Part shown: piece after piece, positions 1,545 to 64,000 of the stretch
How the letters are laid out: every line of letters starts with the position of its first letter
Position numbering within the stretch: the stretch's first letter is position 1
Source: Isurus oxyrinchus
Lineage: Eukaryota
Assembly: GCA_026770705.1 (NCBI GenBank)
Contig: JANJGN010000052.1
Span: 1,240,001-1,304,000 of the forward strand
Length of the DNA: 64,000 nucleotides
Direction of reading: 5' to 3'
Position numbers and translations under genes: made by a program
Notes under the pieces: model-generated
What the model was told of the DNA's origin: nothing
The model's database searches: none
The model's input: the letters and a program-made list of their open reading frames with translations, nothing else

Positions 1545-1913
1545 TTGGACTGTCACAAGAGTGGAAAGGTGACACTCCACGAGAGGTGACAGCACAGGAA
1601 GATTCGTGTGTACAGATTCCATGTCATTACAGTTATCCATCACATTTGGAAAGCCGACCACGAGTCGGAGTCTGGTTTAATAACGAGAAACAGATTCCCT
1701 GGGCTCCCATAGCCTTTCACTCCAAGGATCACAGTCACGAGTTACCACGGTTCCACCATCGGACCCGGCTGTCTGGAGACCTGAAAGATGGCGACTGTTC
1801 CCTGATTATAAACAACATCAGACGGGAAGATGCAGGACCTTATTTTTTCAGGATAGAATTTGACAATGGTCCGAGCCATAACTATTACCCTGTAACCCAG
1901 CTTCATGTTTCTG
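1545..1913 (+). CDS. Siglec gene A, V-set (sialic-acid-binding) Ig exon
   Basis: ccag|TT GGA ... TCT G|gtaagt, phase 1/1. Siglec signature CVQIPCHYSYP...W...RTRLSGDLKDGDCSLII...DAGPYFFRIE with the essential F-strand Arg and the Siglec-type Cys layout. Leader exon not found in window. Confidence 0.9.
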
Positions 1914-2313
1914 GTAAGTGCTGTGTTATAATTACTCAACAATTCACATTCAACACTCAATGGGAATTAACACAAACTGTGACGTTTACATATTAACACA
2001 AAACACAGCTTATTATAACACACTGTCTGATTCTCAATAACCTGGTGATAGCTTCCAGTTCAGTCCTAAAGCAACCTCTAATACTCACTTTAATATCAAT
2101 GATTAAATGTATTGACTGTGTCCATCAATGTTATCAGGTTATCCACTCTCATCGATCTCTCTAATCCTGTTTAAAATAATTTCCTGATCATTGTAACCTC
2201 TCAGTTCTGATATCATCCTTGTAAAAGTGCTTTCTCTTGTGGGACTGTGGTTTCTATTTGAGCTGACGCTTCATGATATATTTCTCTAAAAGGATCCATT
2301 CTCTGTCTGTTAG

Positions 2314-2610
2314 ATTTCACAGATAAACCCATGATATTCCCTGCTGAAATTATTGCAGGAAAGCGTGTGGATGTAAGCTGCACCTTCAACACAACGTGCA
2401 ATGGAACAGCAGCACCTGTCTTAACCTGGGACATTCCCACTGACGTACCTGGATCAGTCTCAAACACTGTAACTCAGCATGGTGTCACTCTGACCTATAC
2501 TTCTGTTCTGACCCTGACCCCATCACTCAAACACCACGGACACACTCTCAGCTGCAGAGTGAGATATCCATCTGTTTCATCGGAGCGGACCCTCGTACTA
2601 ACTGTACAAG
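2314..2610 (+). CDS. Siglec gene A, C2-set Ig exon 1
   Basis: gttag|AT TTC...CAA G|gtaagt, phase 1/1; VSCTFNTTCNG (extra interdomain Cys)...LTW...LSCRV. Confidence 0.9.
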
Positions 2611-2814
2611 GTAAGTATGGACATCCTTCATTATACATTCGCTGGAACAGTCTAGATTATGCACAGCAGGATCCCACAGAAAGGTATTCTGATGAGAACC
2701 AGATCATCTGTAATTTACGGAAAAACACTGACCAGAAAACAGTTAATGACAGTTTCTGAACATTAACACTGGAGCTTTTTTTTCCAGCCAAGAAGCTGAT
2801 AGAGCAGAGCATCA

Positions 2815-3620
2815 CTCACAATATACTAACCTCCTGACAATGCAGCACTCCCTCAGTACTGACCGCCTGACAGTGCAGCACTCCCTCAGTACTGATCCTT
2901 CAATAGTGCAGCAATCACTCAGTACTGACCCTCCAACAGTGCAGAACTCCCTCAGTACTGACCCTCTGACAGTGCAGCACTCCCTCAGTACTGACCTGCT
3001 GAAATTGCAGCACTCCCTCAGTACTGACCCTCTGACAGTGCAGCACTGCCTCAGTACTGACCCTCCAATAATGAAACAATCCCTCAGTACTGACTCTCCG
3101 ACAGTGCAGCACTCCTTCACTGCTGACCCTCCAACTCTGCAGTGCTCCCTCAGGACTGAAAATCCAACATTTCATATCTCCCTCCTGACTGACCCTCTGA
3201 AATTACAGCAGATCCTCGGTCGAGACCTTCAAACAGTGCAGCACTTCCACAGAACTGAATCTACCCCCCACCCACAGTGCAGCACTTCCACAGTACTGTA
3301 CCTCTGACAGTGCAGCACTCCCTCAGTACTGATCCTCCCACCTGCAGCACTCCCTCAGTACTGACCCTCCCACATGCAGCACTCCCTCAGTACTGACCCT
3401 CCCACAGTGCAGCACTCCCTCAGTACTGACCCTCCCACAGTGCAGCACTCCCTCAGTACTGACCCTCCCACAGTGCAGCACTCCCTCAGTACTGACCCTC
3501 CCACATGCAGCACTCCCTCAGTACTGACCCTCCCACAGTGCAGCACTCCCTCAGTACTGACCCTCCCACATGCAGCACTCCCTCAGTACTGACCCTTTGA
3601 CAGTGCTGCACTACCTCACT
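2815..3620 (+). repeat. 30-bp tandem repeat CAGTGCAGCACTCCCTCAGTACTGACCCTC
   Basis: Directly visible; other arrays at 4510-4975, 12645-12895, 19340-19890, 26425-26660, 28830-29175, 57410-57630, 60445-60800 and inverted at 39550-39660, 41540-41940. Confidence 0.95.
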
Positions 3621-3629
3621 ATTGGCTTT

Positions 3630-4510
3630 AAACTAAATAGAGTGTGGGGCGAATGTTTCTGGAGAAGGTATATGTACAGTTACAAACCAAAAGGATTTAT
3701 TAGCATTGCAGGATAGCTGTTTTGGCAATGATACCCAGTGTGTGACAGGAAGGGACACAGTGTCCAAACATAAAAATACATCAGCAAATAGTGTCAGAGG
3801 GGGGGAAATGATAAAAAGTCAAAATTAATGGCTCTTTACTTAAATGCACATAGTATTTGGAATGCTGACCTTTATTTCAAAGGGAATGGAGTATAAAAAT
3901 AGGGAAGTCTTGCTAAAACTATGCATGGCACTAGTTAGACCACACCTAGAATACTGTGAGCAGTTTTGGTTCCCTTATCTAAGGAAAGATGTACTGGCAT
4001 TGGAGGCAGTCCAGAGAAGGTTCACTAGGTTGATCCCAGTAATGGAGGGATTTTCATATGAGGAGAGGTTGAGTAGGATGGGCCTGTACTCATTGGAGTT
4101 TAGGAGAATGAGAGCTGACCTTATTGAAACATATAAGATTCTTAGGGTGCTTGACAGGGTAGATGCTGAGAGGTTGTTTCCCCTTGTGGGAGAGTCTAGG
4201 ACCAGAGGGCATAATCTCAGAGTAAGGGGTCACCCATTTAAGACAGAGATGAGGAGTTTCTTCTCTCAGAGGGTAGTGAATGTGTGGAATTCTTTACTGC
4301 AGAGAGCTGCAGAGGCTGGGTCATTAATTATATTCAAGGCTGAGATACACAGTTTTTTAATCAGTCAGGGAATCAAAGGCTATGGGGAAGAGGCAGGAAA
4401 GTGGAGTTGAGGATTGTCAGATCAGCCATGGTGTCATTGAATGGCGGAGCATAGTTGATTGGCCGAATGGCCTCCTTCTGCTCTGACGGCTTGTGGTCTT
4501 ATGGTCTTAT
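3630..4510 (+). mobile_element. CR1-clade LINE 3' end
   Basis: ORF2 C-terminus LVRPHLEYC...QRRFTRLIP...FFSQRVVNVWNSL; ends in a short (cttatggt)-like tail. Confidence 0.9.
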
Positions 4511-5096: not shown

Positions 5097-5363
5097 ATGC
5101 ACCACAGAATCTCTCAATTACTTTTCATGATATGATTAACGCTTCATGGATCAATATAATTGAGGGGAATTCTGCAGTGATAATCTGCTCTGTCGAGAGC
5201 TTCCCAGCTTCTAACCTGATGTGGCGACATCTTAATGTCCCAATGAACAGAACAAGTTCCAACAATGAGCTGTGGTTGGTGATTCCTCACGTTATATCCA
5301 GGGACACTGGAGATTATCAGTGTGTGGCAGAGAATGAACATGGAGCAGTGGACGGGTTCATAA
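5097..5363 (+). pseudogene. Siglec gene A, C2-set Ig exon 2, 3' end and donor replaced by a LINE
   Basis: ttttag|AT GCA CCA...IICSVESFPASNLMW...DTGDYQCVAENEHG. Homology to the paralogous exon (which ends ITITVE|gtgagt at 16098) stops at about 5363, where LINE sequence starts. Confidence 0.8.
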
Positions 5364-6420
5364 ACATTCTGTTTTTATTAGCTCATGGGATGTGGGTAGT
5401 GTTGACAAGACCAGAAATGATTGCCCATCTGTAACTGCCCCTTGAGAAGGTGGTGGTGAGCTGCCTTCTTTAACCACTGCAGTCCATGTGGTGTACGCAC
5501 ACCCACAGTGCTGTTAGGGAGGGAGTTCCAGGATTTTGTCCCAGTGATGGTGAAGGAACGGCCGATATATTTCCAAGTCCCAGGGCAGACCACCACCTCA
5601 AGTTCGCTTCCAAATCACACACCACACTGACTTGGAACTGTCTTGGTGGAAGAGGTTAAGGGTTTGGAAGGTGCTGTCGAAGGAACCTTTGTGAGTTGCT
5701 GCAGTGCATCTTGTAGATGGTGCACACTGCTGCCACTGTGTGCCAGTGGTGGAGGGTATGAACGTTTATGCTGGTGGATGGGCTGTCGATCAAACAAGCT
5801 GCTCCTGGATGGTGTCGAGCTTCTTGAGTGTTGTTGGAGCTGCACTTATCCAGCCAAGTGGAGATTATTCCATCACACTCCTGAAATGTGCCTTGTCCGA
5901 TGGTGGACAGGCTTTGGGGAGTCAGGAGGTGAGTTACTCACCACAGAGTTCCCAGCCTCTTACCCGCATTTGTAGCCACATTATTTCCTGTTGCCGGGAT
6001 GTTGCCAGGGCCAATAGTCTTTGCTGTATCCAGTATCATCAGCTGATTCCTGATGTCACGTGGAGTCAATCGAATTGTCTGAAAGCTGACATCTGTGATG
6101 CTGGGACCCTCTGGAGGAGGCCGAGATGGAGCATCCACTCAGCACTTCTGGCTGAACATGGTTGCCAATGCTTCAGCCTTGTCGTTTGCACTGATGTGCT
6201 GAGCTCCCCCATCATTAAGGATGGGGATATTTGTGGAACATCCTCCTCCTGTTAGATCTTTAGTTGTCCATCACCATTCATGACTGGATGTGGCAGGACT
6301 GCAGAGCTTAGATCTGACCCGTTGGTTGTGGGATCGCTTTGCTCTGTCTATAGCATGTTATTTCCGCTGTTTGGTGTGTATGTAGTCCTGTGTGTCACCT
6401 CAGCAGCTTGGCACCTCTGT
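5364..6420 (-). mobile_element. CR1-clade LINE fragment interrupting gene A
   Basis: Same family as 21390-23355 and 54751-56848; typical 3' end. Confidence 0.8.
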
Positions 6421-6609: not shown

Positions 6610-6706
6610 GGCGAGATTCCAATGAATGGAAAGCAGGATTGCTTGGAGCTGGAATCTGTTTGAGTGTTGGACTGAGTGGATTCTTCATCTTCAAGTGTGT
6701 GAGAAA
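6610..6706 (+). CDS. Siglec gene A transmembrane exon (no charge in core)
   Basis: ttttacag|GG...AGA AA|gtaagt, 97 nt: RDSNEWKAGLLGAGICLSVGLSGFFIFKCVRK; same length, phases and splice context as gene C TM exon 62194-62290. Confidence 0.8.
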
Positions 6707-7274: not shown

Positions 7275-7665
7275 CTCAGGACACAAAGGGTTAACAGTTT
7301 GCTTACAACACAACACTAAGGCCCTACGTTTCAGTGAAAGGGTTTTCACAATTGTTCCCCAATTCCTGATTTGACTCACAGTGACACATCAACCCTTTCT
7401 CATTAAATACACAGAGGGAGCAGCACAGGAAGAGGTCATTCAGCCCAAGCAGAGCGTGTGGGCAGTTCCTCCCCAGGCGAGCATTCGGAAAGGTCCTGGG
7501 TAAGTAACGGAACGATTGGAATTCACTTCCACAACCAACACCATCCTTTGTTGATGTTGTGACTTTATAAAGACTGATTCCAATGATTGATGCCTTTGAA
7601 AGATTTCTACTGATTATTGAGATCTGGGTGTGAGACTCAAGTCTGTTGTACAGAACATCTTTCTG
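7275..7665 (+). promoter_or_regulatory. Displaced copy of Siglec promoter + non-coding exon 1 inside gene A
   Basis: Near-identical to 10840-11210 and 13060-13420; donor GG|gtaagt at 7500. Confidence 0.55.
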
Positions 7666-7679
7666 GGTAAATTGTGCAG

Positions 7680-8010: not shown

Positions 8011-8115
8011 AAGAGAGGCGAGGGGAAAGCAGGAATCAAATCGAACCATCATGTTGATGAATATCGAGGTCCTGTTTATGAAAACTGTGAGCGTGGTTGG
8101 GCTTTGAGGAATCAG
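8011..8115 (+). CDS. Siglec gene A cytoplasmic exon with YENC motif
   Basis: ctattacag|AAG...CAG|gttagt phase 0/0: KRGEGKAGIKSNHHVDEYRGPVYENCERGWALRNQ. Confidence 0.6.
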
Positions 8116-8628: not shown

Positions 8629-8745
8629 AAGAAAGATGAGAAGGATCTGGAAATGAAATCTAACCGCGGAGTCAGTCCTGATACAGATGATGATCTTTAC
8701 GCAAACTGTGATTTTGCCAAGGATTCTGTTTATGGGAATTTATAA
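8629..8745 (+). CDS. Siglec gene A terminal cytoplasmic exon with ITIM (SVYGNL)
   Basis: ctattacag|KKDEKDLEMKSNRGVSPDTDDDLYANCDFAKDSVYGNL*; acceptor context paralogous to the 8011 exon. Confidence 0.7.
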   Translation, partial: KKDEKDLEMKSNRGVSPDTDDDLYANCDFAKDSVYGNL

Positions 8746-10839: not shown

Positions 10840-12650
10840 GCACGCAAAGGGTTAACAGTTTTCTAACTGTGCGAGGCAAAGAGCTGCTTTCTCACTTGGT
10901 ACTAACCACTTCCTCATTTTGTCTCACAGTGACACATCAACCCTTTCTAATTCAACACACAGAGGGAGCAGCACAGGAAGAGGTCATTCAGCCCAAGCAG
11001 AGCGGGTGGGCAGTTCCTCCCCAGGCGAGCAGTCGGACAGGTCCTGGGTAAGTAACGGAACGATTGGAATTCACTTCCACGACCAACACCGTCCTTTGTT
11101 GATGTTGTGACTTTATAAAGACAGATTCCAATGATTGATGCCTTTGAAAGATTTCTACTGATTATTGAGATCTGGGTGTGAGACTCAAGTCTGTTGTACA
11201 GAACATCTTTCTAGCTCAAGGGATGAGGGAAGAGCAGGGACATGAGCTTTGGGGTGTCCTAAGCAGGTGAAAGGCGATATAGAAATGCAAGTCCTTCATT
11301 GTTTTACTTTCTTAAAGCCTTGTAACAATCTGCAGAGCACCTATCATCCCACAGAGAATGAAATTAGTCTCTGAAGACATTGTCTAAAAGCAGTTCTGAT
11401 CTCTCGAGAGGTGTCGGACAAGAGGTGAGGTCTCATTAACTCATTTCTCTTTCACAGCTTGAGAACCAATGAAATACCTGGGAGTGGACAATGATCAGGA
11501 AATCTTACTTCCTCCTGTCACTTCTCCAAGGTAATATCATTGTCAGCTCGGACAGATTTATGGCTAATCATCTTTGTAAAACATAATTCTTATTGAGCTC
11601 TGATTGGGAACAGATTCAGCAGTGAGCCAGTGTACAAACTCACACCAAGTCCCATTCACCCATCACCCCTGTGCTCACTGATATACACTGACTCCCTGTC
11701 TGACAGCAGAATTGGAGGAGACCAGGGGACTTTGAGGTTTGCATGGTTGGAGGAGAAAGTGATTGGAGAAGAGGAATGGAGGGAATGGAAATTGAGGATG
11801 AGAGTCTTAAACTCGAGGCTCTGCTGGACTGGGAGCCAGTGCAGGTCAGCGAGTGGCAGAGGGTGTGAGGTGTCGAGTCGAGAAACAGTGATAAATACTG
11901 GGGGATGAAGTCTATCCTGATGCTTGGACTCCGATAGCAAAGGAATGAAATTTGTGTCTTTTCCTGATTTTAATCAGAATTTCCCATGAAGACAACACAG
12001 CAGCTCCTAGAATAGACAGGCTGTTCAGTGTCACACTTCCTGTCCATTCTCACCTTGCTAGAAACTTCAATAAGGGAGCAAGATAACTGAAAGAGAGAAG
12101 GAAGGTAAAGCTGTCCGTGTGTAAAGGTGTCAATATTCAGTTTGCATATTTGTCTTTCTCTCGACACATGCAGAGCTCAGGCTAGAGGCACTTTGTTAGT
12201 GTGTTTCACAGTCTCTGCTGGAGTAGGGTCAGTGCTGAGCTTGGGGACAAGTCAGTCTACAATGCTGCATCGGAATCAACAATACAACAATATGGGGTTT
12301 GGATCAGAAATAATCCCTTAGACAATGAGGATCCAAAGAGATTCCTTAGACAATGAGGATCCAAAGAGATTCCTTAAACAATGAGGATCCAAAAAGATTC
12401 CTTAGACAATGAGGATCCAAAGAGAATCCTCAGACAATGAGGATCCAAAGAGATTACTTAAATAATGAGGATCCAAAGAGATTCCTCAGACAATGAACAT
12501 ACAAAGTGCACCAATCAGATTGAATCAGATTAGCCATTCAGCTGTGTTGAAGAGCAGACAGGAATGTTAGGCTAATTAGTGATTCATGACGGTGATAATG
12601 GGGGGAGTTCTGAGGGCTCCTAATCCATTGTCCTGTCTTGTAAATCAGCA
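10840..12650 (+). pseudogene. Orphan Siglec 5' fragment: promoter, non-coding exon (donor 11048), leader exon 11458-11530, part of intron
   Basis: PU.1-like CACTTCCTCATTTT 10907-10920; ATG 11491 MIRKSYFLLSLLQ G|gtaat; 12163-12650 duplicates 450-935; no V exon follows. Confidence 0.7.
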
Positions 12651-13705
12651 CCTTAATACTGACCCTCCAACAGTGCAGCACTCCCTCAGTACTGACCCTC
12701 CAACATTGCAGCACTCCCTCAGTACTGATCCTCCAGCATTGCAGCACTCCCTGATTAATGTCCCTCTGACAGTGCAGCACTCCCTCAGTACTGACCCTGA
12801 AACAGTGGAGATCTCCCTCAGTACTGACCTTACAATAGTGCAACACTCGCTCAGTAATGACCATCCGACAGTGCAGCGCTTGCTCAGTACTGACACTGGG
12901 GAGTTTCAGTCTACTCTGTGGGGCAGACGTCCCCTGAATCGGGTCTTGAATCCCACAACATTCTGACCCCCTGAATTTGGCTGTGAAACCCACTGACCCA
13001 CAGGAGAAACTCCTGGTCAATGACTGTCCACCTGTGAGCAGAAATATCACCACAGGGTCAGGACACAAAGTTCACCAACATCTCAAAACATGAGCTGCTC
13101 TGTCACTTTGATCCAACTTCCTCATTTTGTCTCACAGAGACACATCAACCCTTTCTCACTAAATACACAGAGGGGGCAGCACAGGAAGAGGTCATTCAGC
13201 CCAAGCAGAGCGTGTGGGCAGTTCCTCCCCAGGCGAGCAGTCGGACAGGTCCTGGGTAAGTAACGGAACGATTGGAATTCACTTCCACGACCAACACCGT
13301 CCTTTGTTGATGTTGTGACTTTATAAAGACAGATTCCAATGATTGATGCCTTTGAAAGATTTCTACTGGTTATTGACATCTGGATGTGAGTCTCAGGTCT
13401 GTTGTACAGAACATCTTTCTAGCTCAAGGGATGAGGGAAGTGCAGAGACATGAGCTTTGGGGCATCCTGAGGAGGTGAAAGGTGCTATAGAAATGCAAAT
13501 CCTTCATTGATTTTCTTTCTTAAAGCCTTGTAACTCTCTGCAGAGCACCTATCATCCCACAGAGAATCAAATTCTTCTGTGAAGATATTGTCTAAAAGCT
13601 GTTCTGATCTCTTGAAAGCTGTCGGACAATAGGTGAAGTCTCATTAACTCCTTTCTCTTTCACAGCTTGAGAGTGAGAAGTGGATGGACTATCTGGGAGT
13701 GGACA

Positions 13706-13745
13706 ATGATCGGGAAATCTTACTTCCTCCTGTCACTTCTCCAAG
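13706..13745 (+). CDS. Siglec gene B leader exon (coding part)
   Basis: Acceptor ttcacag at 13665; MIGKSYFLLSLLQ G|gtaat, phase 1; upstream non-coding exon donor at 13256 and PU.1-like ACTTCCTCATTTT at 13116-13128. Confidence 0.75.
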
Positions 13746-14435
13746 GTAATATCATCGTCAGTATGGACAGATTTATGTTTAACAGTTTTTGTAAAAGATC
13801 ATTCTTATCTCTTTATCTCTGTAACGTCCTGCAACTCAACCAAACAACTTCCCAGATCTCTGTGTTACTCCAATTCCGGCCTCTTGACCATCCCCCGATT
13901 CCCATCACTCCAATAGTGGCGGCCGTGCCTTCAGCTGCCTGGGGCCTGAGCTCTGGAATTCACTCCCTAAACCTCGGCGATGGAGGAGATCAGAGGGTTT
14001 CATTTTACTGAGAATCACCACGACCACATCACAGCTGCAGTCAGAATAGACAGAGAGTCCAGCCCTCACACTTCCTGCACAGTTTCACCATAGCAACCAC
14101 AATAAGGAAGTAAAATAACTGAAAGTTAAACCGAAGCCAAACCAGTCGGTGTAGAGAGATGAGATGTTTACACAGTTTCCCTGTGTATCTTGTAGACACT
14201 GTGTTGGGTGGAAGACTGGCTTCAGTAAACAGAGTCCTGAGGACCATGAGCCAATGTAGAATGAACTTGTCCACTCCTGTGTCCAGGATTCTCTTCCATC
14301 CATTGTGAAACCTTGGGGACTTCCTTGTGTGTCCTGTAGATGGTCCTCACTGCAGCCACTGTGCCCCAGTGATGGAGGGGGTGGATATCGAGTCTAGTGG
14401 ATTGACAAACCATCCAGAGTTAAATATTGATATTT

Positions 14436-14467
14436 ATATTACCCTGTAACCCGGCTTCACGGTTCTG
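14436..14467 (+). pseudogene. Siglec gene B V-set exon remnant (about 348 bp deleted)
   Basis: Flanks align to gene A 1288-1534 and 1883-2110; acceptor and nearly the whole V exon are missing, donor at 14468 retained. Confidence 0.85.
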
Positions 14468-15326
14468 GTAAGTGCTGCGTTATAATTACTCAACAATTCA
14501 CATCCAACACTCAATGGGAAATAACACTAACTGTGACGTTTACATATTAACACAAAACACAGCTTATTATAACACACTGTCTGATTCTCAATAACCTGGT
14601 GATCGCTTCCAGTTCAGTCCTAAAGCAACCTCTAATACTCACTTTAATATCAATGATGAAAAGCATTAACTGTATTATCAGGTTATCCATTCCCATCAAT
14701 CTCTCCTGTCCTGTTTAAAAGTCTGACGTATCGATAAAAGAAAGATGTGCATTTCTGCTGCGCAATTTACCACCTCAGGAGGATCCAAATCCCTTCACAG
14801 CCAATGAAATTATTCCTGAATTGTAGTCACAGATGTTAAACACAGCAGGCAGTTTGTGCACAGCAAGATCCAACAAACCACAAGGTGATAAATCACCCAG
14901 ATCACTGAGGAAATGAGAAGCCAGTGAACTCAAACCTCTGGTCTGATGAAGAGTCATACGGACTCGAAACGTTAACCCTGTCTTCCTCTCCACTGATACT
15001 GTCAGACCTGCTGAGTCTTTCCAGCAATTTTTGTTTTGGTTTCAGATTTCCAGCATCCGCAGTATTCTGCTTTTAACTCCAATCTCTGGTCTGAGCCTCT
15101 TCTCTCATCCAGTGTTCTCAATTCACATGTCTCGGAGTGAACGTGTATTAAGCTGAGAGACAGAAACACTACTGCCAAAGAGCAAGAAAATCTTTCCTGA
15201 TCATTGTAACCTCTCAGTTCTGATATCATCCTTGTAAAAGTGCTTTCTCTTGTGGGACTGTGATTTCTATTTGAACTGATGGTTCACGTTATATTTCTCT
15301 AAAAGGATCCATTCTCTGTCTGTTAG

Positions 15327-15623
15327 ATTTCACAGATAAACCCATGATATTCCCTGCTGAAATTATTGCAGGAAAGCGTGTGGATGTAAGCTGCACCTTC
15401 AACACAACGTGCAATGGAACAGCAGCACCTGTCTTAACCTGGGACACTCCCACTGACGTACCTGGATCAGTCTCAAACACTGTAACTCAGCATGGTGTCA
15501 CTCTGACCTATACTTGTGTTGTGACCCTGATTCCATCACTCAAACACCACGGACACACTCTCAGCTGCAGAGTGAGATATCCATCTGTTTCATCGGAGCG
15601 GACCCTCGTACTAACTGTGCAAG
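15327..15623 (+). CDS. Siglec gene B C2-set exon 1 (intact)
   Basis: 297 nt, about 6 substitutions versus gene A 2314-2610; AG/GT intact, phase 1/1. Confidence 0.85.
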
Positions 15624-15945: not shown

Positions 15946-16098
15946 GACATCTTAATGTCCCAATGAACAGAACAACTTCCAACAATGAGCTGTGGTTAGT
16001 GATTCCTCACATTACATCCAGGGACACTGGAGACTATCAGTGTGTGGCAGAGAATGAACATGGAGCAGTGGAGGGATTCATAACCATCACTGTGGAAC
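15946..16098 (+). pseudogene. Siglec gene B C2-set exon 2, 5' half and acceptor replaced by a ~185-bp insert
   Basis: HLNVPMNRTTSNNELWLVIPHITSRDTGDYQCVAENEHGAVEGFITITVE|gtgagt; homology to gene A breaks at about 15761-15945. Confidence 0.8.
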
Positions 16099-17776: not shown

Positions 17777-17916
17777 ACAGTGGAGGAGAGATTCTGCACG
17801 TGATCCTGATCCTGGGAATACGAGCTGTGATATTCCTTGTGGCTGTGGTTATCACTATCGCTGGAGTCTGTGTCTGGGAGAGACAAACAGTGAAAGCAAG
17901 TCGACAGACTGTTTGA
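17777..17916 (+). CDS. Siglec gene B transmembrane exon, activating type (Arg in TM, short Tyr-free tail)
   Basis: ctctag|AC AGT GGA...: SGGEILHVILILGIRAVIFLVAVVITIAGVCVWERQTVKASRQTV*; CGA (Arg) at 17821-17823; phase 1 matches upstream Ig exons. Confidence 0.8.
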
Positions 17917-25959: not shown

Positions 25960-28900
25960 CTGGAAAAGCAGGAGGACAATAGGTGAGAACATTCCGGAAA
26001 GAAAGAAGGCATCATTTCAATCAGGCGCGTCATTGGAAGGAGGATGGCGCATTTCTATAGCGCCTTTCCCCTCCTCAGGATGGCCCAAAGTGTTCCACAG
26101 CTGATGGAAGGACTTTTTCTGAAGTGAGCTCACCGCTGTAATGTAGAAAACGCAGCAGGCAATTCACGCACAGCAAGATCCCACAAACAGAAATGTGATA
26201 ATGGCCCCGATTTTCAGTTTTTTACCAATGTCAGTTGAGGGATAAATGTTTGCCCCAGGAAAGCAGACATAACTGCATCCCATCCACCCCCCACCACCCC
26301 CTCCACACATACACCCAACTCCTGAAACACTTCATTTAAATTGTGGCCATGGAATCCTCTACATCCATCTGAGAGGGCAGATGTTGTCTCAGTTTAACAT
26401 CTCATCTGAAAGACAGCGCCTTCAACAGTGCAGCACCCCCTCAGTACTGACCCTCCGACTGTGCAGCACTCCCTCAGTACTGACCGTCTGACAATGCAGC
26501 ACCCCCTCAGTACTGACCCTCCGACTGTGCAGTCCCCCGCCGGTACTGACCCTCTGACAGTGCAGCACTCCAAGACTGACTGTCTGACAATGCAGCACCC
26601 CCTCAGTACTGACCCTCCGACTGTCCTGCCCCCCCGCTGGTACTGACCCTCCGACAGCTCGGTAATTTCTCAATTACGCCTGGTGGTCCTTTTAACTCAG
26701 AGCTGAGAGTTGCAGAGAATCGAGCAGACACCCTGAACTGACACTTGCAGTGCAAGTACTGGGAGTGCGCTGGTCATTATCATGCTGCTGTCTGTGGGAT
26801 CTTACAGTGCGCCAATGGCTGATTCTTTTCCCACAGTACATCAGTGACCTCACATGAAAGAAAAAAAGCACTTGATTGTCTGCGAAACAGTTTGGGACGT
26901 CCTGATGTGTTGGAAGGCGCTAGAGAAATGCAAGAGTTGACGTTTCGAGTCCTCATGACCCTTCTGAGGACTCGAAACGTCAACTCTTTTCTTCTCCGCC
27001 AATGCTGCCAGACCTGCTGAGTTTTTTCAGGTAATTCTGTTTTTGTTTTGGATTTCCAGCATCCGCAGTTTTCTTTGTTTTTATAGAGAAATGCAAGTCC
27101 TCTTTGTCTTTCACTCGATCCTCTAAGGTGTCTGTTGATTAACCAGCCTCTCGGTGTATGATGTAGGCCTGGTTATAAACAGTTAGAAGGATCAAATATC
27201 AAAAGTGCTTTGGCTGACAGTCAAACCGATTGTGCATTCGGAGAGATTAGATACGGTCTGCGCACAATGACTCCAGTCTCTGGCACTGACTGCCGCCTGG
27301 GGTCTCCCTTCCACATAACACTCACAACTTGCATTTACACAGCGCCTCGGACATTGCAAAATGTCCCAGCCCACATTACCGGAGCGTAAATCAGAGAGAA
27401 GTCTAACACTGAGTCACATATGGAGATATTAGGGATAGGTGACCAAAAGCTTGGTCAAAGATGTCAGTTTTTAAGGAGCGTCTTAAAGGAGAGAGAGAGA
27501 GAGAGAGAGAGGCAGAGAGGTTAAGGGAGGGTATTCCGGAGCTCAGGGCCCCAGGCCGCTGAAGGCACGGCCACCAATGGTGGAGCGATGGGGATCAGGG
27601 GGACCCGGGAGATGCAGTAATGTCAGAGATTTTGGAGGAACATCGGGACCGGAGGAGGTGTTCTCCTGCTCCATATCTCTCTCTCTCTTCCTCTCTTCCA
27701 CTCCTCCTCTCCCTGTCTCTCTCTCTCCTACTCTTCCTCTCAATTGCCCTCTCTCCCAATCTTTCTCTCCTCTCTCCCTTTTCCTGTCTCTCTCCCTCTC
27801 TCTCCCCTGTCTCCTTCTCCCACTCTGTATCTCTCCCTCTCTCTCACACTATTTTTGTAACTTTCGCTCACTCTGTAACTCTCCCTTCCCTGTTAATTTC
27901 TCTCTCTTGGACAATCTCTCTTCCCTTTTCACTTTCCCTCACTCTGCATCTCTTTAATTTCTCCCTCTGTCACTCTCTCCCACCTATGTTCTTTCCCTTT
28001 CATCCCTCCCCGTCCCACTCTGTGTCTCTCTCTTCCAATCCCTCCCTCCCCCATTCCATCCCTCTCTCCGACTCTCGACTCCCAGCCTCTCTTTAACCCA
28101 CTCCCAGGCTGGATCAGTCTCCCTCTCACTATTCCCGGCGTGGGTTACATTTAAAATTCCTGTGGGGATATGTTCACTTCCTTGGAATTGCCTCTTCCCA
28201 GCTTTGCAAAAAAAGGGTGGGGGGGGGGGTCTCGATTTCAAACATGCCTCCTGAGTATAACCGAGACAGACTGCCACTGAAATCAGCTTGAAATCAGAAA
28301 ACTTTCTGTGGAAGAAACGAGCAGGGAGAAACCTTAAAATAAGGAATGAATTTCCACCTACCGTGTCCGGGGAATCCACAGATTTCTCAATCGTCGAAGA
28401 ACCTAAAGCAGTGTCAACCTGCAAAAAGAAAGAATTTATCAGGGAGAAAGTGAGAGGAGGATTGAGGGAGAGGGAGAGAGAGAGAGAGAGGTACAGGAGA
28501 GAGAGGGGGAGGAGGACAGACTTGCATTTCTCTAACGCCTTTCACCACATCCCAAAGCATTTCACAGCCACTGAAGGATGTTTTTGAAGTGCACTCACAC
28601 TGTAGGAAATGTGGCAGCTGATTTGTGCACAGCAAGATCCCACAAATAGCAATGTGATCATGGCCTAGATCATCTGTTTTTGGTGATGTTGGGTGAGGGA
28701 TAAATATTGGTCCCAGGACACCGGGGAGAACTCCCCCTGCTCTTCCTCCAAATAGTGGCTGTGGGATCTTTCACACCCGCCCGAGAGGGCAGACGGGGGA
28801 CTCGGTTTAATGTCTCATTCAACATTGTTGTGCTCCCTCAGTACTAACCCTTTGACACTGCAGCACTCCCTCAGTACTAACCCTTCGATAGTGCTGCACT

Positions 28901-30384
28901 CCCACAGTATTGTCCCTCCGTCAGTGCAGCGCTCCCTCAGTACTAACCCTTTGACACTGCAGCACTCCCTTAGTATTAACCCTTCGATAGTGCTGCGCTC
29001 CCTCAGTACTGTCCCTCCGTCAGTGCAGCTCTATTTCAGTACTAACCCTTCGACACAGCAGCACTCCCTCAGTACTGACCTCCGACAGTATAGCACTCAC
29101 TCAGTACTGTCCCTCCAATAGTGCAACACTTCCACACTACTGACCCTCTGACAGTCCAGCACTCCCTCAGCACGGAGTGTTGACCGACGTTATGGGACTG
29201 AATTCCCTGGAGTGAGACTCAGACCAGAGATTTAGGTAGGGTTGTTCCGGCTGGAGGAGGTTACAGAGATAGGGAGGGTTGTAGAGGCTGTAGGAGGTAA
29301 CAGAGATAGGGAGGGTTCTAGAGGCTGTAGGAGGTGACAGAGATAGGGAAGGTTGTAGGGGCTGTAGGAGGTTACAGAGATAGGGAGGTGAGTAGGGGCT
29401 GTAGGAGGTTAAAGAGATGGGGGGGGTTGTGGGGGCTGGAGGAGGTTACAGAGGTAGGGAGGGTTGTAGAGGCTGGAGGAGGTTACCAAAATAGATACTG
29501 TTGTAGGGGCCATAGTAGGTTACAGAGATAGGGAGAGTTATAGTGTGGAGAGGACGTTATAGAGTTCATGAGCATTGTAGGGGCTGGAGGAGGTTACAGT
29601 GATTCTGAGGGTCGTGGGGCCTGGAGGAGTTTACAGAGATAGGGAGGGTTGTAGGGCCTGGAGGAGGTTACAGAGATAGGGAGGGTTGTAGGGTCTGGAG
29701 CAGGTTACAGAGATAGGGAGGGTTGTAGGGTCTAGAGGAGGTTACAGTGATCATGAGGGTTGTGGGGCCTGGGGGAGGTTACAGAGATAGGTAGGGTTGT
29801 AGGGGCTGGAGGAGGTTACAGAGATAGGGAGGTTTATAGGGGCTGGAGGAGGTTACAGAGATAGGGAGGGTTGTAGGGGCTGGAGGAGGTTACGGAGATA
29901 GGGACAGTTGTAGGGGCTGGAGGAAGTTACAGAGATAGGGATTGTTGTAGGGGCTGGAGGAGGTTGCAGATATAGGGAGGGTTGTAGCGGCTGGAGGAGG
30001 TTACAGAGATAGGGAGGGGTGTAGGGGCTGGAGGAGGTTACAGAGATAGGGAGGGTTGTAAGGCCTGGTGGAGGTTACAGAGATAGGGAGTGGCTGAGGA
30101 GGGATTGAAAACAAGAATGAGAATTTCAGGGGAAACGACAGAAGGAAATGATGTTAAATTCATAGAGGGCGACAATATTAAAGGCACGAACATAATAATA
30201 TCAAACTGCGGAAGAGACCAGTCTATCTGGGTGGTAGACGTAGAGTCATGTGCAAGAAACACCTCACCCAGAGGGACATCTCTTAGCTTACCCTCGACAA
30301 GGAGAAGAAGTGACTCAGCTGCAGGGAGAGCAGCAAAGTCAGAGTGAACAAGACAAGTCGCCATTTCATCTGGGAGCTTCCCAT
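25843..30384 (-). CDS. HAMP: Hepcidin-like prepropeptide, 3 coding exons: 30384-30292, 28418-28362, 25959-25843 (88 aa)
   Basis: Spliced product MGSSQMKWRLVLFTLTLLLSLQLSHFFSLSR|VDTALGSSTIEKSVDSPDT|GSLLQRQKR-MGRQQLCRFCCNCCNWRGPNETCGLCCRY*. Signal peptide, acidic propiece, furin site RQKR, hepcidin 8-Cys pattern C-x2-CC-x-CC-loop-C-G-x-CC. Both introns are GT-AG and phase 0. TATA upstream. Confidence 0.93.
28362..28418 (-). CDS. HAMP: Hepcidin exon 2 (propeptide)
   Basis: ttctttttgcag|GTT...ACG|gtaggt; 57 nt, phase 0/0, VDTALGSSTIEKSVDSPDT; size typical of hepcidin exon 2. Confidence 0.8.
29240..30090 (+). repeat. 37-bp G-rich minisatellite in hepcidin intron 1
   Basis: GGAGGGTTGTAGGGGCTGGAGGAGGTTACAGAGATAG tandem units. 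Confidence 0.95.
30292..30384 (-). CDS. HAMP: Hepcidin exon 1 (signal peptide)
   Basis: ATG at 30384 (second in-frame ATG at 30369), hydrophobic core LVLFTLTLLLSL, donor AGG|gtaagc phase 0. Confidence 0.85.
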
Positions 30385-30454
30385 CTCTGCCTGTCTCTTC
30401 TGATCTTCTGGCTCTGCTTTGATGCTTTGGTTTGTAACTAGAGGAGCTTCCTGC

Positions 30455-33330: not shown

Positions 33331-34194
33331 GAAGGGTTCTCAAAATTTCCAACTGTCAAGGAACCCTGGGTTGGTGAGCATGACCCCTGACCTCTCCTAG
33401 TGCAATTTAGTTAGGGTTTGGGGGTGGGACAAGGGTAAGGGCATTAGTAGCGTGATTCTCCCTCGTTATGCCGTGTGTTCCCCATTCTTAACTCAGTGTA
33501 CTTTGTAAGTCTGTATAATCTCAGTGTCATCCTAATGTTATAAGTTCATTTGTGACTTCAGTAAACTCAGTTTTTGTCTTGCACCAAAACCAGTTGTCTG
33601 CTGCACTTTGTGACAAGCCCCGAATAAGTCCAAGGTCTAGAACCCAGGGATTGGGAGTGATTCAGACGGCTCAGAAGTCGCAGGTGAAGCTGACACACAC
33701 CACCACACCCTACAAGGGGCTGAATGGCCTCCTCCTGTTCCTGTATAACGGACATAAGTGGCAGAATGGCCTCCTCCTGTTTCTGTGTAACAGTCTTGAG
33801 GGGGCTGAATGGCCTCCTCCTGTTCCTGTGTAACAGTCTCGAGGGGGCTGAATGGGCCTCTTCTGGTTCCTGTGTAACAGGCTCGAGGGGACTGAATGGC
33901 CTCCTCCTGTTCCTGTGTAACAGGCTCAAGGGGCTGAATGGCCTCCTTCTGCACTGTAAACTTGTTGTGATACTGTAACTGCCTCTTTGGTTTCATTCAG
34001 CTGAATCTTCAGCTCTTCAGTCTCTTCCTTGTATCTCTTGCCTTCCTCCTGGAACATTGGACATGGTTGGGTCTTCCCTGCCAACTGTTTCTTCAGTTTG
34101 CTCAGAGCGGCACAGAATTCGCTTTCTTTCTCTTCAGGATTTTCCAGTGGAACCAACTCTGACCTGAGGGACACTTGCAGCCTGTGAGGATGCT

Positions 34195-35322
34195 TCAATT
34201 CTTCAAACTCATTCCGAGATACACTCTCATATTCCCCCAGCAACTCAGCAACTCCTCCAGTGAAACATTTCAGAGCAGCTGAGCTTGGTTTTCTGGAACC
34301 AGTCTCGGCCCAGAAGACTAGGGCCCTCACCTGTCGCTATGATCACTGGAAGCTGGGCTGTCTGCTGCCTGTAGGACACAGGTACTGGGATGAGGTCCTT
34401 TCCCTGTATGGATTCTCCAGTGTGTGTCTTCAGCTGATCCATTGTTGGCTCTAAATTCAGCGTCTGGGTTCCTTCATTTAGCTGTTTAAATGTGGGCTCT
34501 TCCACCACTGTGTCTGAGGCTCCCGTATCTGCCCCATTACTAGTGGCTGCCCATTCACTTGGGTTGTGATGGTTATAGGTTCAGTTTTTACCACTGTGAC
34601 ATTGGACAGGGAATAGACATCGGTATCAGCAGCTTCAGGCTCTGTGATATTATTCACTTCCATCATGTTGGTGCACTGCCTGATGGGCTGTCTCGATTTC
34701 ACCCTGCATTGCTTTATTACCCGCCCCTTTCTTGTGGCAGTGATGGCATTCTGCCCCCTTGAACCTGCAGGTGTCCAGTACGTGCTCAATGCCCCCCACA
34801 TCGAGAACAGGCCAACTTCGGAGTTGCTGCTGAAATACTCCCACGAAGCCTTTTAGTTTCTGGAGCGGCAGAGACTGTCTCTCGCTTGGCGGCTGTCTCT
34901 CTCTCTCTCTCTCTCACTCCAGTTTGAGCCTCACGCCCGGTGGTTGGTTCCTGTCCCAGCTGAGGACTGGTGCCATGTTGTACATCCTGTAAATCCCGCC
35001 AGTCTCTCCCAGCACTTTCCATGCCTGGCGCTATTTCCATGGTGCGCTTCAAATCGATGTCGGCTTCTGCGAGTAAACGGCTCTGAATGGCGTTGGGGTG
35101 AACGACACAAACCAATCGGCCCCGCAACATGTCATTGAGTGTGTCTCCGAGGTCCCAGTGCTCAGTCACCTGCTTCCACTTCACTGTATAGGTTGCGATG
35201 GACTCTCCCTGGGCCCTTACTCTGGAGTTAAACTTAAACCTCTGCATTATTACCCACGGCTTCAGCTGAAAACACATCTTCATGAGGTCGACTAATTGGT
35301 GAAAAGATTTAGAATTGGGTGC
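34195..35322 (-). mobile_element. Decayed Gypsy/Ty3 LTR-retrotransposon internal fragment (gag, zinc knuckle, protease)
   Basis: QRFKFNSRVRAQGESIATY...LNDMLRGRLVC (gag); CRFKGAECHHCHKKG; frameshifted DTGAS and SLLGRDW protease motifs. Confidence 0.85.
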
Positions 35323-61470: not shown

Positions 61471-62193
61471 CTGCAATAACACAATATCACACTGTGGTTA
61501 TCATATAGCAGAGAGTCAGTGCAGCCCAGACACAGAGCCCACTGTAACCTTACACCAACAACTGGGACTGTCTCTTTAAATCACTTCTGCACAAAGCACA
61601 GAATCAAGAAGCTTGACACCATCCACAACAAAGCAGCCCGATTGATCGACACTCCATCCACCACATTAAACATTCACTCCCTCCACCATGAACACACAGT
61701 GGCAGCAGTGTGTGTACCATCTACAAGATGCACTGCAGCAACTCGGCAAGGCTCCTTCAACAGCACCTTCCAAACCCACGACCTCTACCATCTAGAAGGA
61801 CAAGGGCAGCAGACACATGGGAACACCACCACCTGGAAGTTCCCCTCCAAGTCACTCACCATCCTGACTTGGAAATATATCACTGTTCCTTCACTGTCGC
61901 TGGGTCAAAATCCTGGAGCTCCCTCTCTAACAGCACTGTGGGTGTACCTACACCACATGGACTGCAGCGGGTCAAGAAGGCAGCTCACCAACACCTTCTC
62001 AAGGGGCAATTAGAGATGGGCAATTAATATCGGCCACGCCAGTGACAGCCACATTCGATGAAAGAATTTAAAATCTCACAGCTCAGGAGGAAGCCACTCA
62101 GCCCATCGTGCCTGTGCTGGCCCTTTGTAAAAACTGTCCAATTAATCCTAAACAAATGTTTATATTAAAATCAAGTTAAATCTTCAGACTTAC

Positions 62194-62290
62194 TTTCTCA
62201 CACAGATGAAGATGAAGATTCCAGCCAGGAAAACACTCAACATGATCCCAGCCGTGAACAATCCTACTGTCCATTTACTGGAGTCTCTAC
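62194..62290 (-). CDS. Siglec gene C transmembrane exon (neutral)
   Basis: ttttacag|GT AGA...AGA AA|gtaagt: GRDSSKWTVGLFTAGIMLSVFLAGIFIFICVRK, phase 1/2. Confidence 0.88.
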
Positions 62291-62814
62291 CTGTAAAAAC
62301 AGCCATTAATTACTGCACTACAGTTTTACAATGATGCTCCGATGTATCTCGAGAAGCGATACACTCACTCAGTGTTTAAATACTCATTCTCGGGCACGCT
62401 GACATTTATTGTCCATCCCTAGTTTCCCCTTGAGAAGGTGGTGGGGGGTCTTCCTCCTGAACCACTGGTTTGTCCCAAACTGGGAGACCAGTTCAGAGGG
62501 CAGGTAAGAGTTAACCATGTTGGTGTTTGAGACTGGAGTCACATATACACCCAGACCAGTTAAAATGGACAGGTTTCGCTCCCTTAAGATCATTAGTGAC
62601 CCATATTATATATGTAATTTCTATATATATGTATCAACTACCCTCCCTCAAATAATCAATTATCACCTCAATTTCACTCTGTTGTTTGTGGGATCTTGCT
62701 GTGCACAAATCAGCTGTTGCATTTCCTACATGATGACAGTTAGCTCACTTTGAAACTGCTTCACTGGTTATCGAGCGTTTTGGGAATTCCTAAGTATTTT
62801 ATCAACGCAAGTCT

Positions 62815-63445
62815 TATATTTCGATTTAATCCATGTAACATTTATATATAATATTTATCAATGTGATCCCTATAGCATAAATTTATAATATTTATCAATA
62901 TAATCTATGTAACATTTATATATAATTTTTATCCATTTAATCTCTGTAATATTTATATATAATGTTTCTCGATTTAATCCATGTAACATTTATATATAAT
63001 ATTTATCAATGTAATGTATGTAACATTTATATATATTTATTCATTTAATCTGTGTAACATTTATATATAATTTTTATCAATGTAATCTATGTAACATTTA
63101 TATAAAATGTTTCTCGATGCAATCGATGTAACATTTATATATAATATTTATCAATATAATCCATGTAACATTTATATATAATTTTTATCAATGTAATCTA
63201 TGTAACATTTATATAAAATGTTTCTCGATGCAATCGATGTAACATTTATATATAATATTTATCAATATAATCCATGTAACATTTATATATAATATTTATC
63301 AATGTAATCCATGTAACATTTATATATAATTTTTATCAATGTAATCTATGTAACATTTATATATAATATTTATCGACGTAATCTATGTAATATTTATATA
63401 TAATGTTTCTCAATGTAATCTATGTAATGTTTATATATAATATTT
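62815..63445 (+). repeat. AT-rich 37-38-bp minisatellite in gene C intron
   Basis: ATGTAACATTTATATATAATATTTATCAATGTAATCT units. Confidence 0.92.
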
Positions 63446-63794
63446 AGTCGTTTGGGAGGAGAACCTGAGTATTGCTGAGAAAGGACATTTTGTCAAAGCT
63501 TTCTGTCTTGCACCCAATGAAGCAGCTTATCTGGGGGAGAGGGTTCCAGACTTCCACTCCCCTTTGTGTGAAGAAGTGCTTCCTGCCATCACCCCCTGAA
63601 CGGCCTGGCTCCAATTTGACCAAGTGTTGCCATTGTCACATGAGGTCAGGTGATTCAAAGCTTGGTCAAAGGGGTCAGTTGTAAAGAGCATCTTAGAGGA
63701 GGTAGAGAGAGAGGTGGAGAGGTTGAGGGAGGGAATTCTCGAGTTTAGGGATCAATCCAGCTGAGTGGAGATCGATCCTGAGTGAGTCTCTCAC

Positions 63795-64000
63795 CTTTGA
63801 CCCACAGATACACCTTGAACATGGCTTCCCCGTGTGGGTTTTGAACCGAGCAGGATGCAATCACTCCCCCCTCATCCTGGGGTCTCATCAGGGTGAGGGA
63901 ACCAGTCACCAGATGCCCATCTCTGACCTGCCACGACACAAAACCTCCGTGTGTTTGGTTACCACTGATGTTGGCACTGGGCAGGTGCCAGGTGAGGTTT
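63795..64000 (-). CDS. Siglec gene C membrane-proximal Ig exon (partial, runs off window)
   Basis: NLTWHLPSANISGNQTHGGFVSWQVRDGHLVTGSLTLMRPQDEGGVIASCSVQNPHGEAMFKVYLWVK G|gtgaga; resembles MAG domain 5. Confidence 0.8.

What the first reader, a model, noticed from the sequence alone, without database searches (positions are those of the whole stretch)
1545..64000. Hepcidin embedded in an expanded Siglec cluster: ancient HAMP-MAG-CD22 linkage
Seen: four Siglec-like genes or remnants surround the hepcidin gene, + strand copies on the left and - strand copies on the right. Known: human HAMP lies directly next to MAG and CD22 on 19q13. Inference: this is the orthologous or a paralogous locus in a shark, where the MAG/CD22 neighbourhood, not a separate CD33-related cluster, underwent lineage-specific birth-and-death expansion.
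Basis: partly seen in the sequence, partly recalled or inferred. Interest (0 to 1): 0.75.

Follow-up and report, generated by a model that had tools for sequence, protein, structure and literature searches.

The report
Shark hepcidin inside Siglec gene cluster
In this shark an intact hepcidin gene sits among four partly broken genes for Siglec sugar-sensing immune receptors, a family that has multiplied across sharks and rays; this likely preserves the old hepcidin-Siglec neighbourhood of human chromosome 19, although the human neighbours MAG and CD22 themselves were not found in the window.

Summary
Observation confirmed. A three-exon hepcidin gene (minus strand, 25843-30369) has a furin site and eight cysteines, passes the Pfam cut-off, and both introns appear as spliced joints in a run from a ~99% identical shark. 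Two Siglec units lie on each side: A (inhibitory-type tail), B (V exon deleted; arginine in the membrane segment, activating type), C (V exon cut by a retroelement), D (doubled tyrosine-motif tail). No MAG, CD22, USF2 or FFAR was found and the flanks could not be read, so orthology to 19q13 rests on the hepcidin-Siglec adjacency. The expansion spans 20 elasmobranch species, in two old clades: an arginine-bearing one scoring slightly closer to CD33-related Siglecs than to MAG, and a MAG-like one with tyrosine for the arginine. 'Not CD33-related' is therefore unsupported. Unexpected: this hepcidin lacks His3 and looks HAMP2-like, while a loose contig end in the same run reads as a second, HAMP1-like hepcidin. 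Likely an ancestral hepcidin-Siglec block under birth-and-death with paired receptors.

The parts
1545..1913 (+). Siglec A, V-set exon (F-strand Arg in YFFR, Siglec Cys pattern)
   Evidence: 95% to Carcharodon P0022
2314..2610 (+). Siglec A, first C2-set exon (extra Cys)
5097..5367 (+). Siglec A, second Ig exon; last ~21 bases and splice donor replaced by a LINE fragment
   Evidence: comparison with the paralogous exon end at 16075-16098
5368..6420 (-). Decayed LINE (reverse-transcriptase-type) fragment in Siglec A; end approximate
   Evidence: 73-84% matches to other window repeats, one of which (55304-55846) has Pfam RVT_1
6610..6706 (+). Siglec A, uncharged transmembrane exon
7415..7499 (+). 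Siglec A, first tail exon ('exon X'); 82 of 85 bases identical to each of two copies upstream of B's signal exons
8011..8115 (+). Siglec A, second tail exon (VYENC)
8629..8745 (+). Siglec A, last exon (LYANC and ITIM SVYGNL, stop)
10963..11530 (+). Unit B, first copy of exon X plus signal-peptide exon (ATG 11491)
13171..13745 (+). Unit B, second copy of exon X plus signal-peptide exon (ATG 13706)
14437..14467 (+). Unit B, remnant 3' end of the V exon; acceptor and ~340 bases deleted
15327..15623 (+). Unit B, intact C2-set exon, 291 of 297 bases identical to A's
15948..16098 (+). Unit B, 3' half of the second Ig exon (5' half deleted)
17777..17916 (+). Unit B, activating-type transmembrane exon (Arg in LGIRAVIF, short tyrosine-free tail, stop)
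   Evidence: 93% to Carcharodon P0022/P0026
25843..25959 (-). Hepcidin exon 3: end of prodomain, RQKR, 29-residue mature peptide with 8 Cys
28362..28418 (-). Hepcidin exon 2 (prodomain)
30292..30369 (-). Hepcidin exon 1, coding part (signal peptide); TATA-like TATAAG at 30461
33900..35323 (-). Decayed LTR-retrotransposon-type gag/protease fragment that cuts Siglec C's V exon; left end approximate
   Evidence: (gag-asp_proteas E 0.0066, below cut-off)
35324..35610 (-). Siglec-like C, V exon cut just before the F-strand position that carries Arg in Siglecs
   Evidence: (95% to Carcharodon P0116)
36431..36476 (-). Siglec-like C, signal-peptide exon
   Evidence: matches the start of P0116
57043..58902 (-). 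Siglec D, distal tail copy: exons 58821-58902 and 57043-57291 (LLYANI, TEYTQI)
60055..61470 (-). Siglec D, proximal tail copy: exons 61389-61470 and 60055-60303 (first motif altered to FLYANP; MEYAQI)
62194..62290 (-). Siglec D, uncharged transmembrane exon
63795..64000 (-). Siglec D, membrane-proximal Ig exon, cut by the window end
   Evidence: 96% to Carcharodon P0013

Best explanation
The window is part of the main elasmobranch Siglec cluster, with an intact hepcidin gene in its middle, and this adjacency is likely inherited from an ancestral jawed-vertebrate hepcidin-Siglec block of which human HAMP-MAG-CD22 is another descendant. Shown: the hepcidin gene model and its splicing in a near-identical shark; four Siglec units from two old clades; recent duplications, deletions and retroelement breaks; free mixing of ectodomains and tails in database gene models. 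Inferred mechanism: unequal crossing-over and conversion between near-identical exon modules keep producing, re-tailing and destroying receptors. Arg-bearing A-type receptors would bind sialylated self ligands and damp leukocytes through tail tyrosines (A, D); copies with the Arg-containing membrane exon (B type) would pair with an ITAM adaptor (DAP12 or FcR-gamma) and answer microbes that engage the inhibitory twin. In this genome B and C are dead or ligand-blind, A can still give an open V-C2-TM-tail product by skipping its damaged exon, D is undetermined. The hepcidin would be cut after RQKR to a 29-residue, four-disulfide peptide; lacking His3 and changing fast at its N-terminus, it likely acts mainly as an antimicrobial or inflammation-linked (HAMP2-like) peptide, with iron control likely left to a second, HAMP1-like paralogue seen only as a contig end.
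For: Hepcidin; both introns as CT..AC joints in 9 and 11 contigs of run X16. Siglec identity. Family breadth: 115 of 147 candidates, 114 named, from 20 shark and ray species; 22 of 94 for clade C. Two clades at SH-aLRT 100, each with sharks and rays; Arg in 136 of 146 A-type and Tyr in 18 of 18 C-type V domains. Activating membrane segment in 10 of 161 proteins, in Carcharodon and two Scyliorhinus species, always with an A-type V. A and B C2 exons 291 of 297 identical. Skipping A's damaged exon leaves 355 codons without a stop, as in Cetorhinus isoform P0039. Mammalian HAMP lies with USF2 and the FFAR genes, MAG nearby (PMC4453067, passages). Second hepcidin: loose end reads SHLSICMYCC in frame after RQKR-M; sea bass Hamp1 starts QSHLSL, Hamp2 has CRFCCNCC as here (PMC5665920, passage).
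Against: No MAG, CD22, USF2, LSR or FFAR was found: 210 of 321 repeat-poor frames of 50+ residues (all beyond base 17900) gave no HLH or GPCR family, a test too weak for short exons since the known C and D Ig exons also missed E 0.01. Flanks unreadable. Hepcidin linkage was seen in this one genome only; three searches found no shark hepcidin protein to place on a chromosome. In the 4 ray species with data, clade C lies on another record than clade A, so the block has been broken at least once. The MAG-like unit C lies 5' of hepcidin here, whereas human MAG is 3' (recalled). No bony-vertebrate sequence is in the tree, and the tree is the quick one. CD33 leads MAG by only 17 bits in the profile search and they tie for the single protein P0035 (123.9 each). 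The second hepcidin rests on one contig end of 38 letters plus two minor variants. Database gene models are automatic and may fuse neighbours, inflating module mixing. No binding, signalling or killing was measured.
Confidence: 0.68

Rival explanations
1. One reading: the cluster is an expansion of MAG/CD22 descendants only, and its likeness to CD33-related Siglecs is convergence or retained ancestral sequence.
For: Clade C's profile scores MAG far above the rest (122-182 bits against 73-84); P0035 ties MAG with Siglec-8; fish MAG orthologues carry ITIMs (PMC7226832, passages), so tyrosine tails do not prove CD33-related descent.
Against: Clade A's profile ranks eight CD33-related chains above MAG, CD22 far below; an activating Arg-membrane partner exists; no unit is a MAG or CD22 orthologue by the tests run.
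Confidence: 0.3
2. The adjacency is secondary: a duplicated, fast-evolving hepcidin copy was carried into an unstable Siglec cluster in sharks, and the orthologue of human HAMP (the His3 paralogue) lies elsewhere.
For: The window's hepcidin is the divergent type and a HAMP1-like paralogue exists outside the window; the region is full of recent rearrangements; no conserved single-copy neighbour was found.
Against: The gene keeps both introns, so it is no retrocopy; landing by chance next to the same gene family as in mammals is unlikely, and hepcidin duplicates in fish lie together on one chromosome (PMC6240063, passages), so the paralogue is probably nearby.
Confidence: 0.15
3. The window's hepcidin is itself the iron hormone, with a shark-specific N-terminus matched by shark ferroportin; the SHLS end is a minor paralogue or an assembly product.
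For: Contigs of the window type dominate run X16 (variant at 25929 about 25,000 of 544,000 summed depth); six residues still precede the first Cys, with a hydrophobic residue at 6 and Phe at 9.
Against: His3 is absent; 4 of mature residues 2-6 differ in the DNA contig of organism B and 6 of 7 changed codons listed in exon 3 are non-synonymous, unlike purifying selection on HAMP1 (PMC3325200, passages); the loose end is in frame and has Cys where expected.
Confidence: 0.25
4. The broken state of B and C is an assembly artefact of a repeat-rich scaffold rather than gene death.
For: 520 N in several gaps and 20,495 bases of tandem repeat.
Against: The breaks are clean junctions in gap-free sequence with paralogous flanks on both sides; the nearest N is over 4 kb from C and over 20 kb from B.
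Confidence: 0.1

Closest known systems
Human 19q13.1 USF2-HAMP-MAG-CD22-FFAR block (HAMP/USF2/FFAR/MAG from PMC4453067 passages; CD22 position and gene order recalled)
   Same: Hepcidin directly beside Siglec-family genes.
   Different: Siglecs on both sides and multiplied; no USF2, MAG, CD22 or FFAR found within 25 kb on one side and 33 kb on the other; MAG-like unit 5' rather than 3'.
Mammalian CD33-related Siglec cluster and paired receptors Siglec-5/14 and -11/16 (pairing recalled; activating class named in PMC7226832)
   Same: V + C2 ectodomains with essential Arg, near-identical ectodomains on inhibitory or activating tails, pseudogenes, module exchange; best PDB profile matches are CD33, Siglec-5, -10, -8.
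   Different: Linked to hepcidin; many database models carry several tandem V domains; two kinds of inhibitory tail; descent from the same ancestor as tetrapod CD33-related genes not tested.
MAG (Siglec-4)
   Same: Best PDB match of clade C and co-best of clade A single proteins.
   Different: Clade C has Tyr for the sialic-acid-binding Arg in 18 of 18 V domains, variable domain number and interchangeable tails; it is MAG-like, not MAG.
Teleost HAMP2 / HAMP1 pair (PMC5665920, PMC3325200, PMC6240063)
   Same: Three exons, RX(K/R)R, eight Cys; CRFCCNCC core as in sea bass Hamp2; a second type starting with SHLS as in Hamp1.
   Different: HAMP2 is reported only from acanthopterygians; the shark peptide has 29 residues, an 8-residue loop between Cys5 and Cys6 with an N-glycosylation sequon, and introns of 1.9 and 2.4 kb.
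RefSeq automatic models 'SIGLEC12/13/14-like, CD33-like, MAG-like, CD22-like' of sharks and rays
   Same: Same family; window exons are 85-96% identical to Carcharodon and Cetorhinus models.
   Different: The names are best-hit labels scattered over two clades; no shark hepcidin protein turned up in three searches.

Membership tests
Hepcidin (HAMP) | Three exons, two GT-AG introns | tested here: met
   joints in run X16
Hepcidin (HAMP) | RX(K/R)R site and eight Cys in the mature peptide | tested here: met
   RQKR; 8 Cys; Pfam PF06446 above cut-off
Hepcidin (HAMP) | Signal peptide | tested here: inconclusive
   Exon 1 reads as basic-then-hydrophobic; no predictor was run
HAMP1-type (iron-regulating) hepcidin | His3-bearing N-terminus (DTHFP / QSHLS type) | tested here: not met
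   Window peptide starts MGRQQL; the loose end in X16 meets it
HAMP1-type (iron-regulating) hepcidin | Ferroportin down-regulation | not testable with these tools
   needs peptide assay
Siglec (unit A / clade A) | V-set domain with F-strand Arg, no F-strand Cys | tested here: met
   YFFR aligns with YFFR of Siglec-5 and -7; Arg in 136 of 146
Siglec (unit A / clade A) | Extra Cys in V and first C2 domain, B-E strand Cys pair | tested here: met
   Cys align with those of MAG and Siglec-8 (homologue P0035; window exons); disulfides themselves not shown
Siglec (unit A / clade A) | Sialic acid binding | not testable with these tools
   needs glycan array
Siglec (unit C / clade C) | F-strand Arg | tested here: not met
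   Tyr in 18 of 18 homologous V domains; the window's exon is cut before this position
CD33-related Siglecs | Highest similarity of V+C2 to CD33-related members | tested here: inconclusive
   CD33 131 against MAG 114 bits by profile; tie for P0035
CD33-related Siglecs | Proximal ITIM plus distal ITIM-like motif | tested here: met
   D: LLYANI (fits the broad consensus ending in I) and TEYTQI; A has three tyrosines, only SVYGNL fits the strict signature of PMC7226832
CD33-related Siglecs | One clade with tetrapod CD33-related genes | not tested
   No bony-vertebrate Siglec sequence was returned, so the tree holds elasmobranchs only
Activating paired receptors (Siglec-14 type) | Basic residue in the membrane segment, short tail without tyrosine, ectodomain near-identical to an inhibitory gene | tested here: met
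Activating paired receptors (Siglec-14 type) | Association with DAP12 or FcR-gamma | not testable with these tools
   needs co-expression
MAG orthologue | Arg-bearing V, fixed five-domain ectodomain, single conserved gene (recalled) | tested here: not met
   Clade C lacks the Arg and varies in domain number; clade A scores CD33 first
CD22 orthologue | Best similarity to CD22 | tested here: not met
   CD22 61 bits for clade A, 74-77 for clade C, below MAG in both; absent from the five matches of 'CD22-like' P0116 at E 1e-15
19q13.1-orthologous locus | USF2, LSR, FFAR, true MAG and CD22 nearby | tested here: inconclusive
   None found in the window (weak for short exons); flanks not held

The most novel reading that the evidence does not exclude
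Sharks keep the primordial Siglec locus of jawed vertebrates: CD33-related Siglecs, with full inhibitory/activating pairing, arose beside hepcidin and MAG before sharks and bony fish split, not in tetrapods, and sit there with an arginine-less MAG-like sister family; and sharks have their own HAMP1/HAMP2 division of labour, with a fast-evolving antimicrobial hepcidin embedded among the receptors.
Probability: 0.35. Interest if true: 0.75.

Novelty: new variant of a known kind. Interest (0 to 1): 0.5.

Why it matters
Papers read here say that fish genomes lack inhibitory CD33-related Siglecs (PMC7226832), list the Siglec family under Tetrapoda (PMC13262535) and restrict HAMP2 to acanthopterygians (PMC3325200). 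A shark-and-ray-wide Siglec cluster with tyrosine-motif and Arg-membrane members, and a two-type hepcidin system, would move both back toward the base of jawed vertebrates or show independent repeats of the same solutions. Hepcidin gives a small, unambiguous anchor for testing where CD33-related genes came from. The synteny as such is expected in a slowly evolving shark genome, and the Siglec proteins already exist as automatic database models, which limits the surprise.

Tried and rejected
No whole genome is held, so flanks were not read. Shark hepcidin proteins were sought to compare contig lengths with the Siglec cluster: word search none, HMMER on 1.84 billion representatives 0 at E 0.001, ESM Atlas only a 0.75 lead to a hepcidin cluster; a short Cys-rich query makes these weak negatives. 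A search with C's V exon, meant to pull in true MAG or CD22, returned only clade C; the 625-626-residue models P0132 and P0136 were considered as MAG and rejected (no Arg, repeated domains). Run X18 (organism B, RNA by guess) had no cover on the hepcidin exons: no conclusion. Depth is per contig and repeat bins are also high, so it was not used to rank expression. Promoter scan: TATA-like site only; no GGCGCC and no perfect STAT site in 2.6 kb upstream. Weak Pfam hits below cut-off (MatE, zf-TRAF, CCDC90-like, DUF3915, Nterm_IS4) were treated as chance. The careful tree did not finish; the quick tree was used. ESM Atlas on P0035 gave generic Ig clusters. Literature searches showed no paper on shark Siglec clusters or shark hepcidin; the library lacks most subscription journals, and two key papers on CD33-related evolution were not held. 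One supplementary file of the elephant shark genome paper gave 0 hits for siglec, hepcidin, CD22, CD33, HAMP; other supplements not held as text may bear on this. Earlier scan findings: nothing relevant.

Full report
Host and setting. The window is shark DNA: the V exon at 1545-1913 is 95% identical to a Carcharodon protein and 90% to Cetorhinus ones, and all 114 named of 115 hits (147 candidates) are from sharks and rays. No whole genome is held. About a third is tandem repeat (20,495 bases) and there are 520 N.

Hepcidin. A six-frame motif search found one furin-site-plus-Cys stretch. Three minus-strand exons (30292-30369, 28362-28418, 25843-25959) join with GT-AG ends in phase 0 to 83 codons. 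Exon 3 scores 31.2 bits on Pfam Hepcidin, cut-off 27, and its only PDB match is a fish hepcidin (E 0.36). The predicted mature peptide after RQKR has 29 residues, 8 Cys, 4 basic and 1 acidic residue, with an 8-residue loop between the fifth and sixth Cys. Laying four public runs on 25530-30700, run X16 (organism A, whose DNA run X1 differs by 0-3 letters in pieces of 213-343 bases of unique sequence) shows joints skipping 2402 and 1873 bases with CT..AC ends, in 9 and 11 contigs: exactly the two predicted introns. The gene is thus real and spliced in a near-identical shark; the tissue is unknown and contig depth does not measure expression.

A second hepcidin. The peptide starts MGRQQL, without the His3 of human DTHFP (abstract of PMC9779829 in the listing) or sea bass Hamp1 QSHLSL; its CRFCCNCC core equals that of sea bass Hamp2 (PMC5665920, passage). 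One X16 contig follows the window up to RQKR-M and then leaves it; the loose letters read SHLSICMYCC in the same frame, and another loose end gives a lysine-rich loop. This points to a HAMP1-like paralogue outside the window; it rests on single contig ends plus a minor variant that is also in the DNA run X1. In organism B's DNA contig, 7 codons of exon 3 differ among the listed differences (245 further differences over the whole stretch were not shown), 6 non-synonymous, 4 of them in mature residues 2-6. That fits fast evolution as described for HAMP2, which is reported only in acanthopterygians (PMC3325200, passages). Function is inferred, not shown.

The four Siglec units. A (plus): V, C2, a second Ig exon, membrane exon, three tail exons. 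The second Ig exon has lost its last ~21 bases and donor to an antisense LINE fragment; skipping it leaves 355 codons open, a form also modelled in Cetorhinus (P0039). Its signal exon is not in the window. B (plus): two copies of a short exon plus signal exon, a V exon reduced to its last ~30 bases, an intact C2 exon (291 of 297 bases as in A), half of the next exon, and a membrane exon with Arg and a short tyrosine-free tail. C (minus): signal exon and a V exon cut by a gag/protease-type fragment; nothing else of the gene was found. D (minus): last Ig exon, membrane exon and a doubled tail, the distal copy with LLYANI and TEYTQI; the same doubling is in Carcharodon models P0027 and P0047.

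What family. A's V exon has the F-strand Arg aligned with Siglec-5 and -7, and its first 18 of 32 PDB matches are Siglecs. A quick tree of 164 database V domains plus the two window ones splits into two clades at SH-aLRT 100, each holding sharks and rays: A-type with Arg in 136 of 146 and C-type with Tyr in 18 of 18 (71 of 163 inner branches unresolved; no bony-vertebrate rows). Profiles against the PDB rank, for clade A (19 rows), CD33 128-131, Siglec-5 and -10 120, Siglec-8 116, MAG 114, CD22 58-61 bits; for clade C (10 rows), MAG 122-182, CD33 75-84, CD22 74-77. For the single protein P0035, MAG and Siglec-8 domains 1-3 tie. So neither clade is MAG or CD22 proper; one leans CD33-related, the other is MAG-like and has lost the sialic-acid Arg.

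Cluster and mechanism. Hits are 90% cluster representatives, isoforms included, so they are not gene counts. Clades A and C share a record in 7 of 11 species with data; the 4 exceptions are rays. Among 161 proteins, both V types occur with both inhibitory tail types, and the Arg membrane segment occurs in 10, in Carcharodon and two catsharks, always behind an A-type V; automatic models may exaggerate such mixing. Variation among 29 lamniform A-type V domains is concentrated in residues 33-54 and 107-111, which by position are the C-C' and G-strand regions flanking the ligand site (recalled). The most likely mechanism is module-wise duplication, conversion and loss, giving inhibitory receptors with activating twins, as in mammalian CD33-related pairs (recalled). 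Adaptor binding and sialic acid binding are inferred.

The synteny claim. Mammalian HAMP lies with USF2 and the FFAR genes, with MAG nearby (PMC4453067, passages; CD22's place is recalled). Hepcidin 7.9 kb from B and 5.0 kb from C repeats the hepcidin-Siglec adjacency, and common descent is the simplest reading. But 210 of 321 repeat-poor frames of 50+ residues, all beyond base 17900, gave no HLH or GPCR family (weak for short exons, strong for single-exon FFAR genes), the flanks were unreadable, and three searches found no shark hepcidin protein to place in other genomes. Orthology of the locus is therefore likely but unproven. The contrast 'MAG/CD22 neighbourhood, not CD33-related' is not supported; the data fit better the idea, recalled from Cao and colleagues (papers not held), that CD33-related genes began in the same region as MAG and CD22.

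Novelty. Ten searches of the open library listed no paper on shark Siglec clusters or shark hepcidin; subscription journals are largely missing. Passages seen state that fish lack inhibitory CD33-related Siglecs (PMC7226832) and list the Siglec family under Tetrapoda (PMC13262535), while the whale shark paper names Siglecs among families of the jawed-vertebrate ancestor (PMC8455134). Also seen as passages without bearing: PMC6795676, PMC3832898, PMC10620051, PMC6557307 (Arg in activating membrane segments), PMC6240063. The parts are known kinds and the Siglecs exist as automatic models; the arrangement, the paired and Arg-less clades and the two hepcidin types appear undescribed within what could be searched. 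Interest 0.5.

Noticed in passing
window 25930 (loose end in run X16): In-frame continuation SHLSICMYCC after RQKR-M: a HAMP1-like hepcidin paralogue not in the window; a second loose end at 25871 gives a lysine-rich loop.
   Followed up: partly
window 7415-7499, 10963-11047, 13171-13255: The same 85-base exon (82 of 85 identical) is a needed coding exon of A's tail and also sits just upstream of both signal exons of B, where database models use it as a first exon; homologues of the coding use occur in 20 of 161 proteins.
   Followed up: partly
clade C homologues P0116-P0137: A conserved Arg-less Siglec-like family in sharks and rays with an invariant Trp/Tyr-rich stretch after the C strand; some models have up to about ten near-identical C2 domains. 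Ligand unknown.
   Followed up: partly
window 13706-17916: B's signal, C2 and membrane exons are all phase 1, so a V-less activating receptor could still be spliced.
   Followed up: no
window 27167 / 28361: A minor CT..AC joint in one X16 contig: hepcidin exon 2 spliced to an alternative acceptor inside intron 2.
   Followed up: no
window 25880: The window has Gly at mature position 18; DNA runs of organisms A and B and most X16 contigs give Glu.
   Followed up: partly
window 42700-43140 and 44130-44600: Two diverged copies of a degraded, coding-like segment on the minus strand; no Pfam family above cut-off; unidentified.
   Followed up: partly
window 45900-53200: About 7.3 kb of C/T-rich degenerate tandem repeat (11-12-base units) between assembly gaps; gives long spurious frames.
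   Followed up: no
database models P0001-P0030: Many A-type models carry two to several tandem V-set domains, unusual for Siglecs (Siglec-12 has two, recalled); may be real or fused models.
   Followed up: no
window 18780-18980 and 56900-57040: A diverged copy of the sequence that follows D's last exon lies on the minus strand between B and hepcidin; possibly the trace of a fifth unit (seen by eye only).
   Followed up: no
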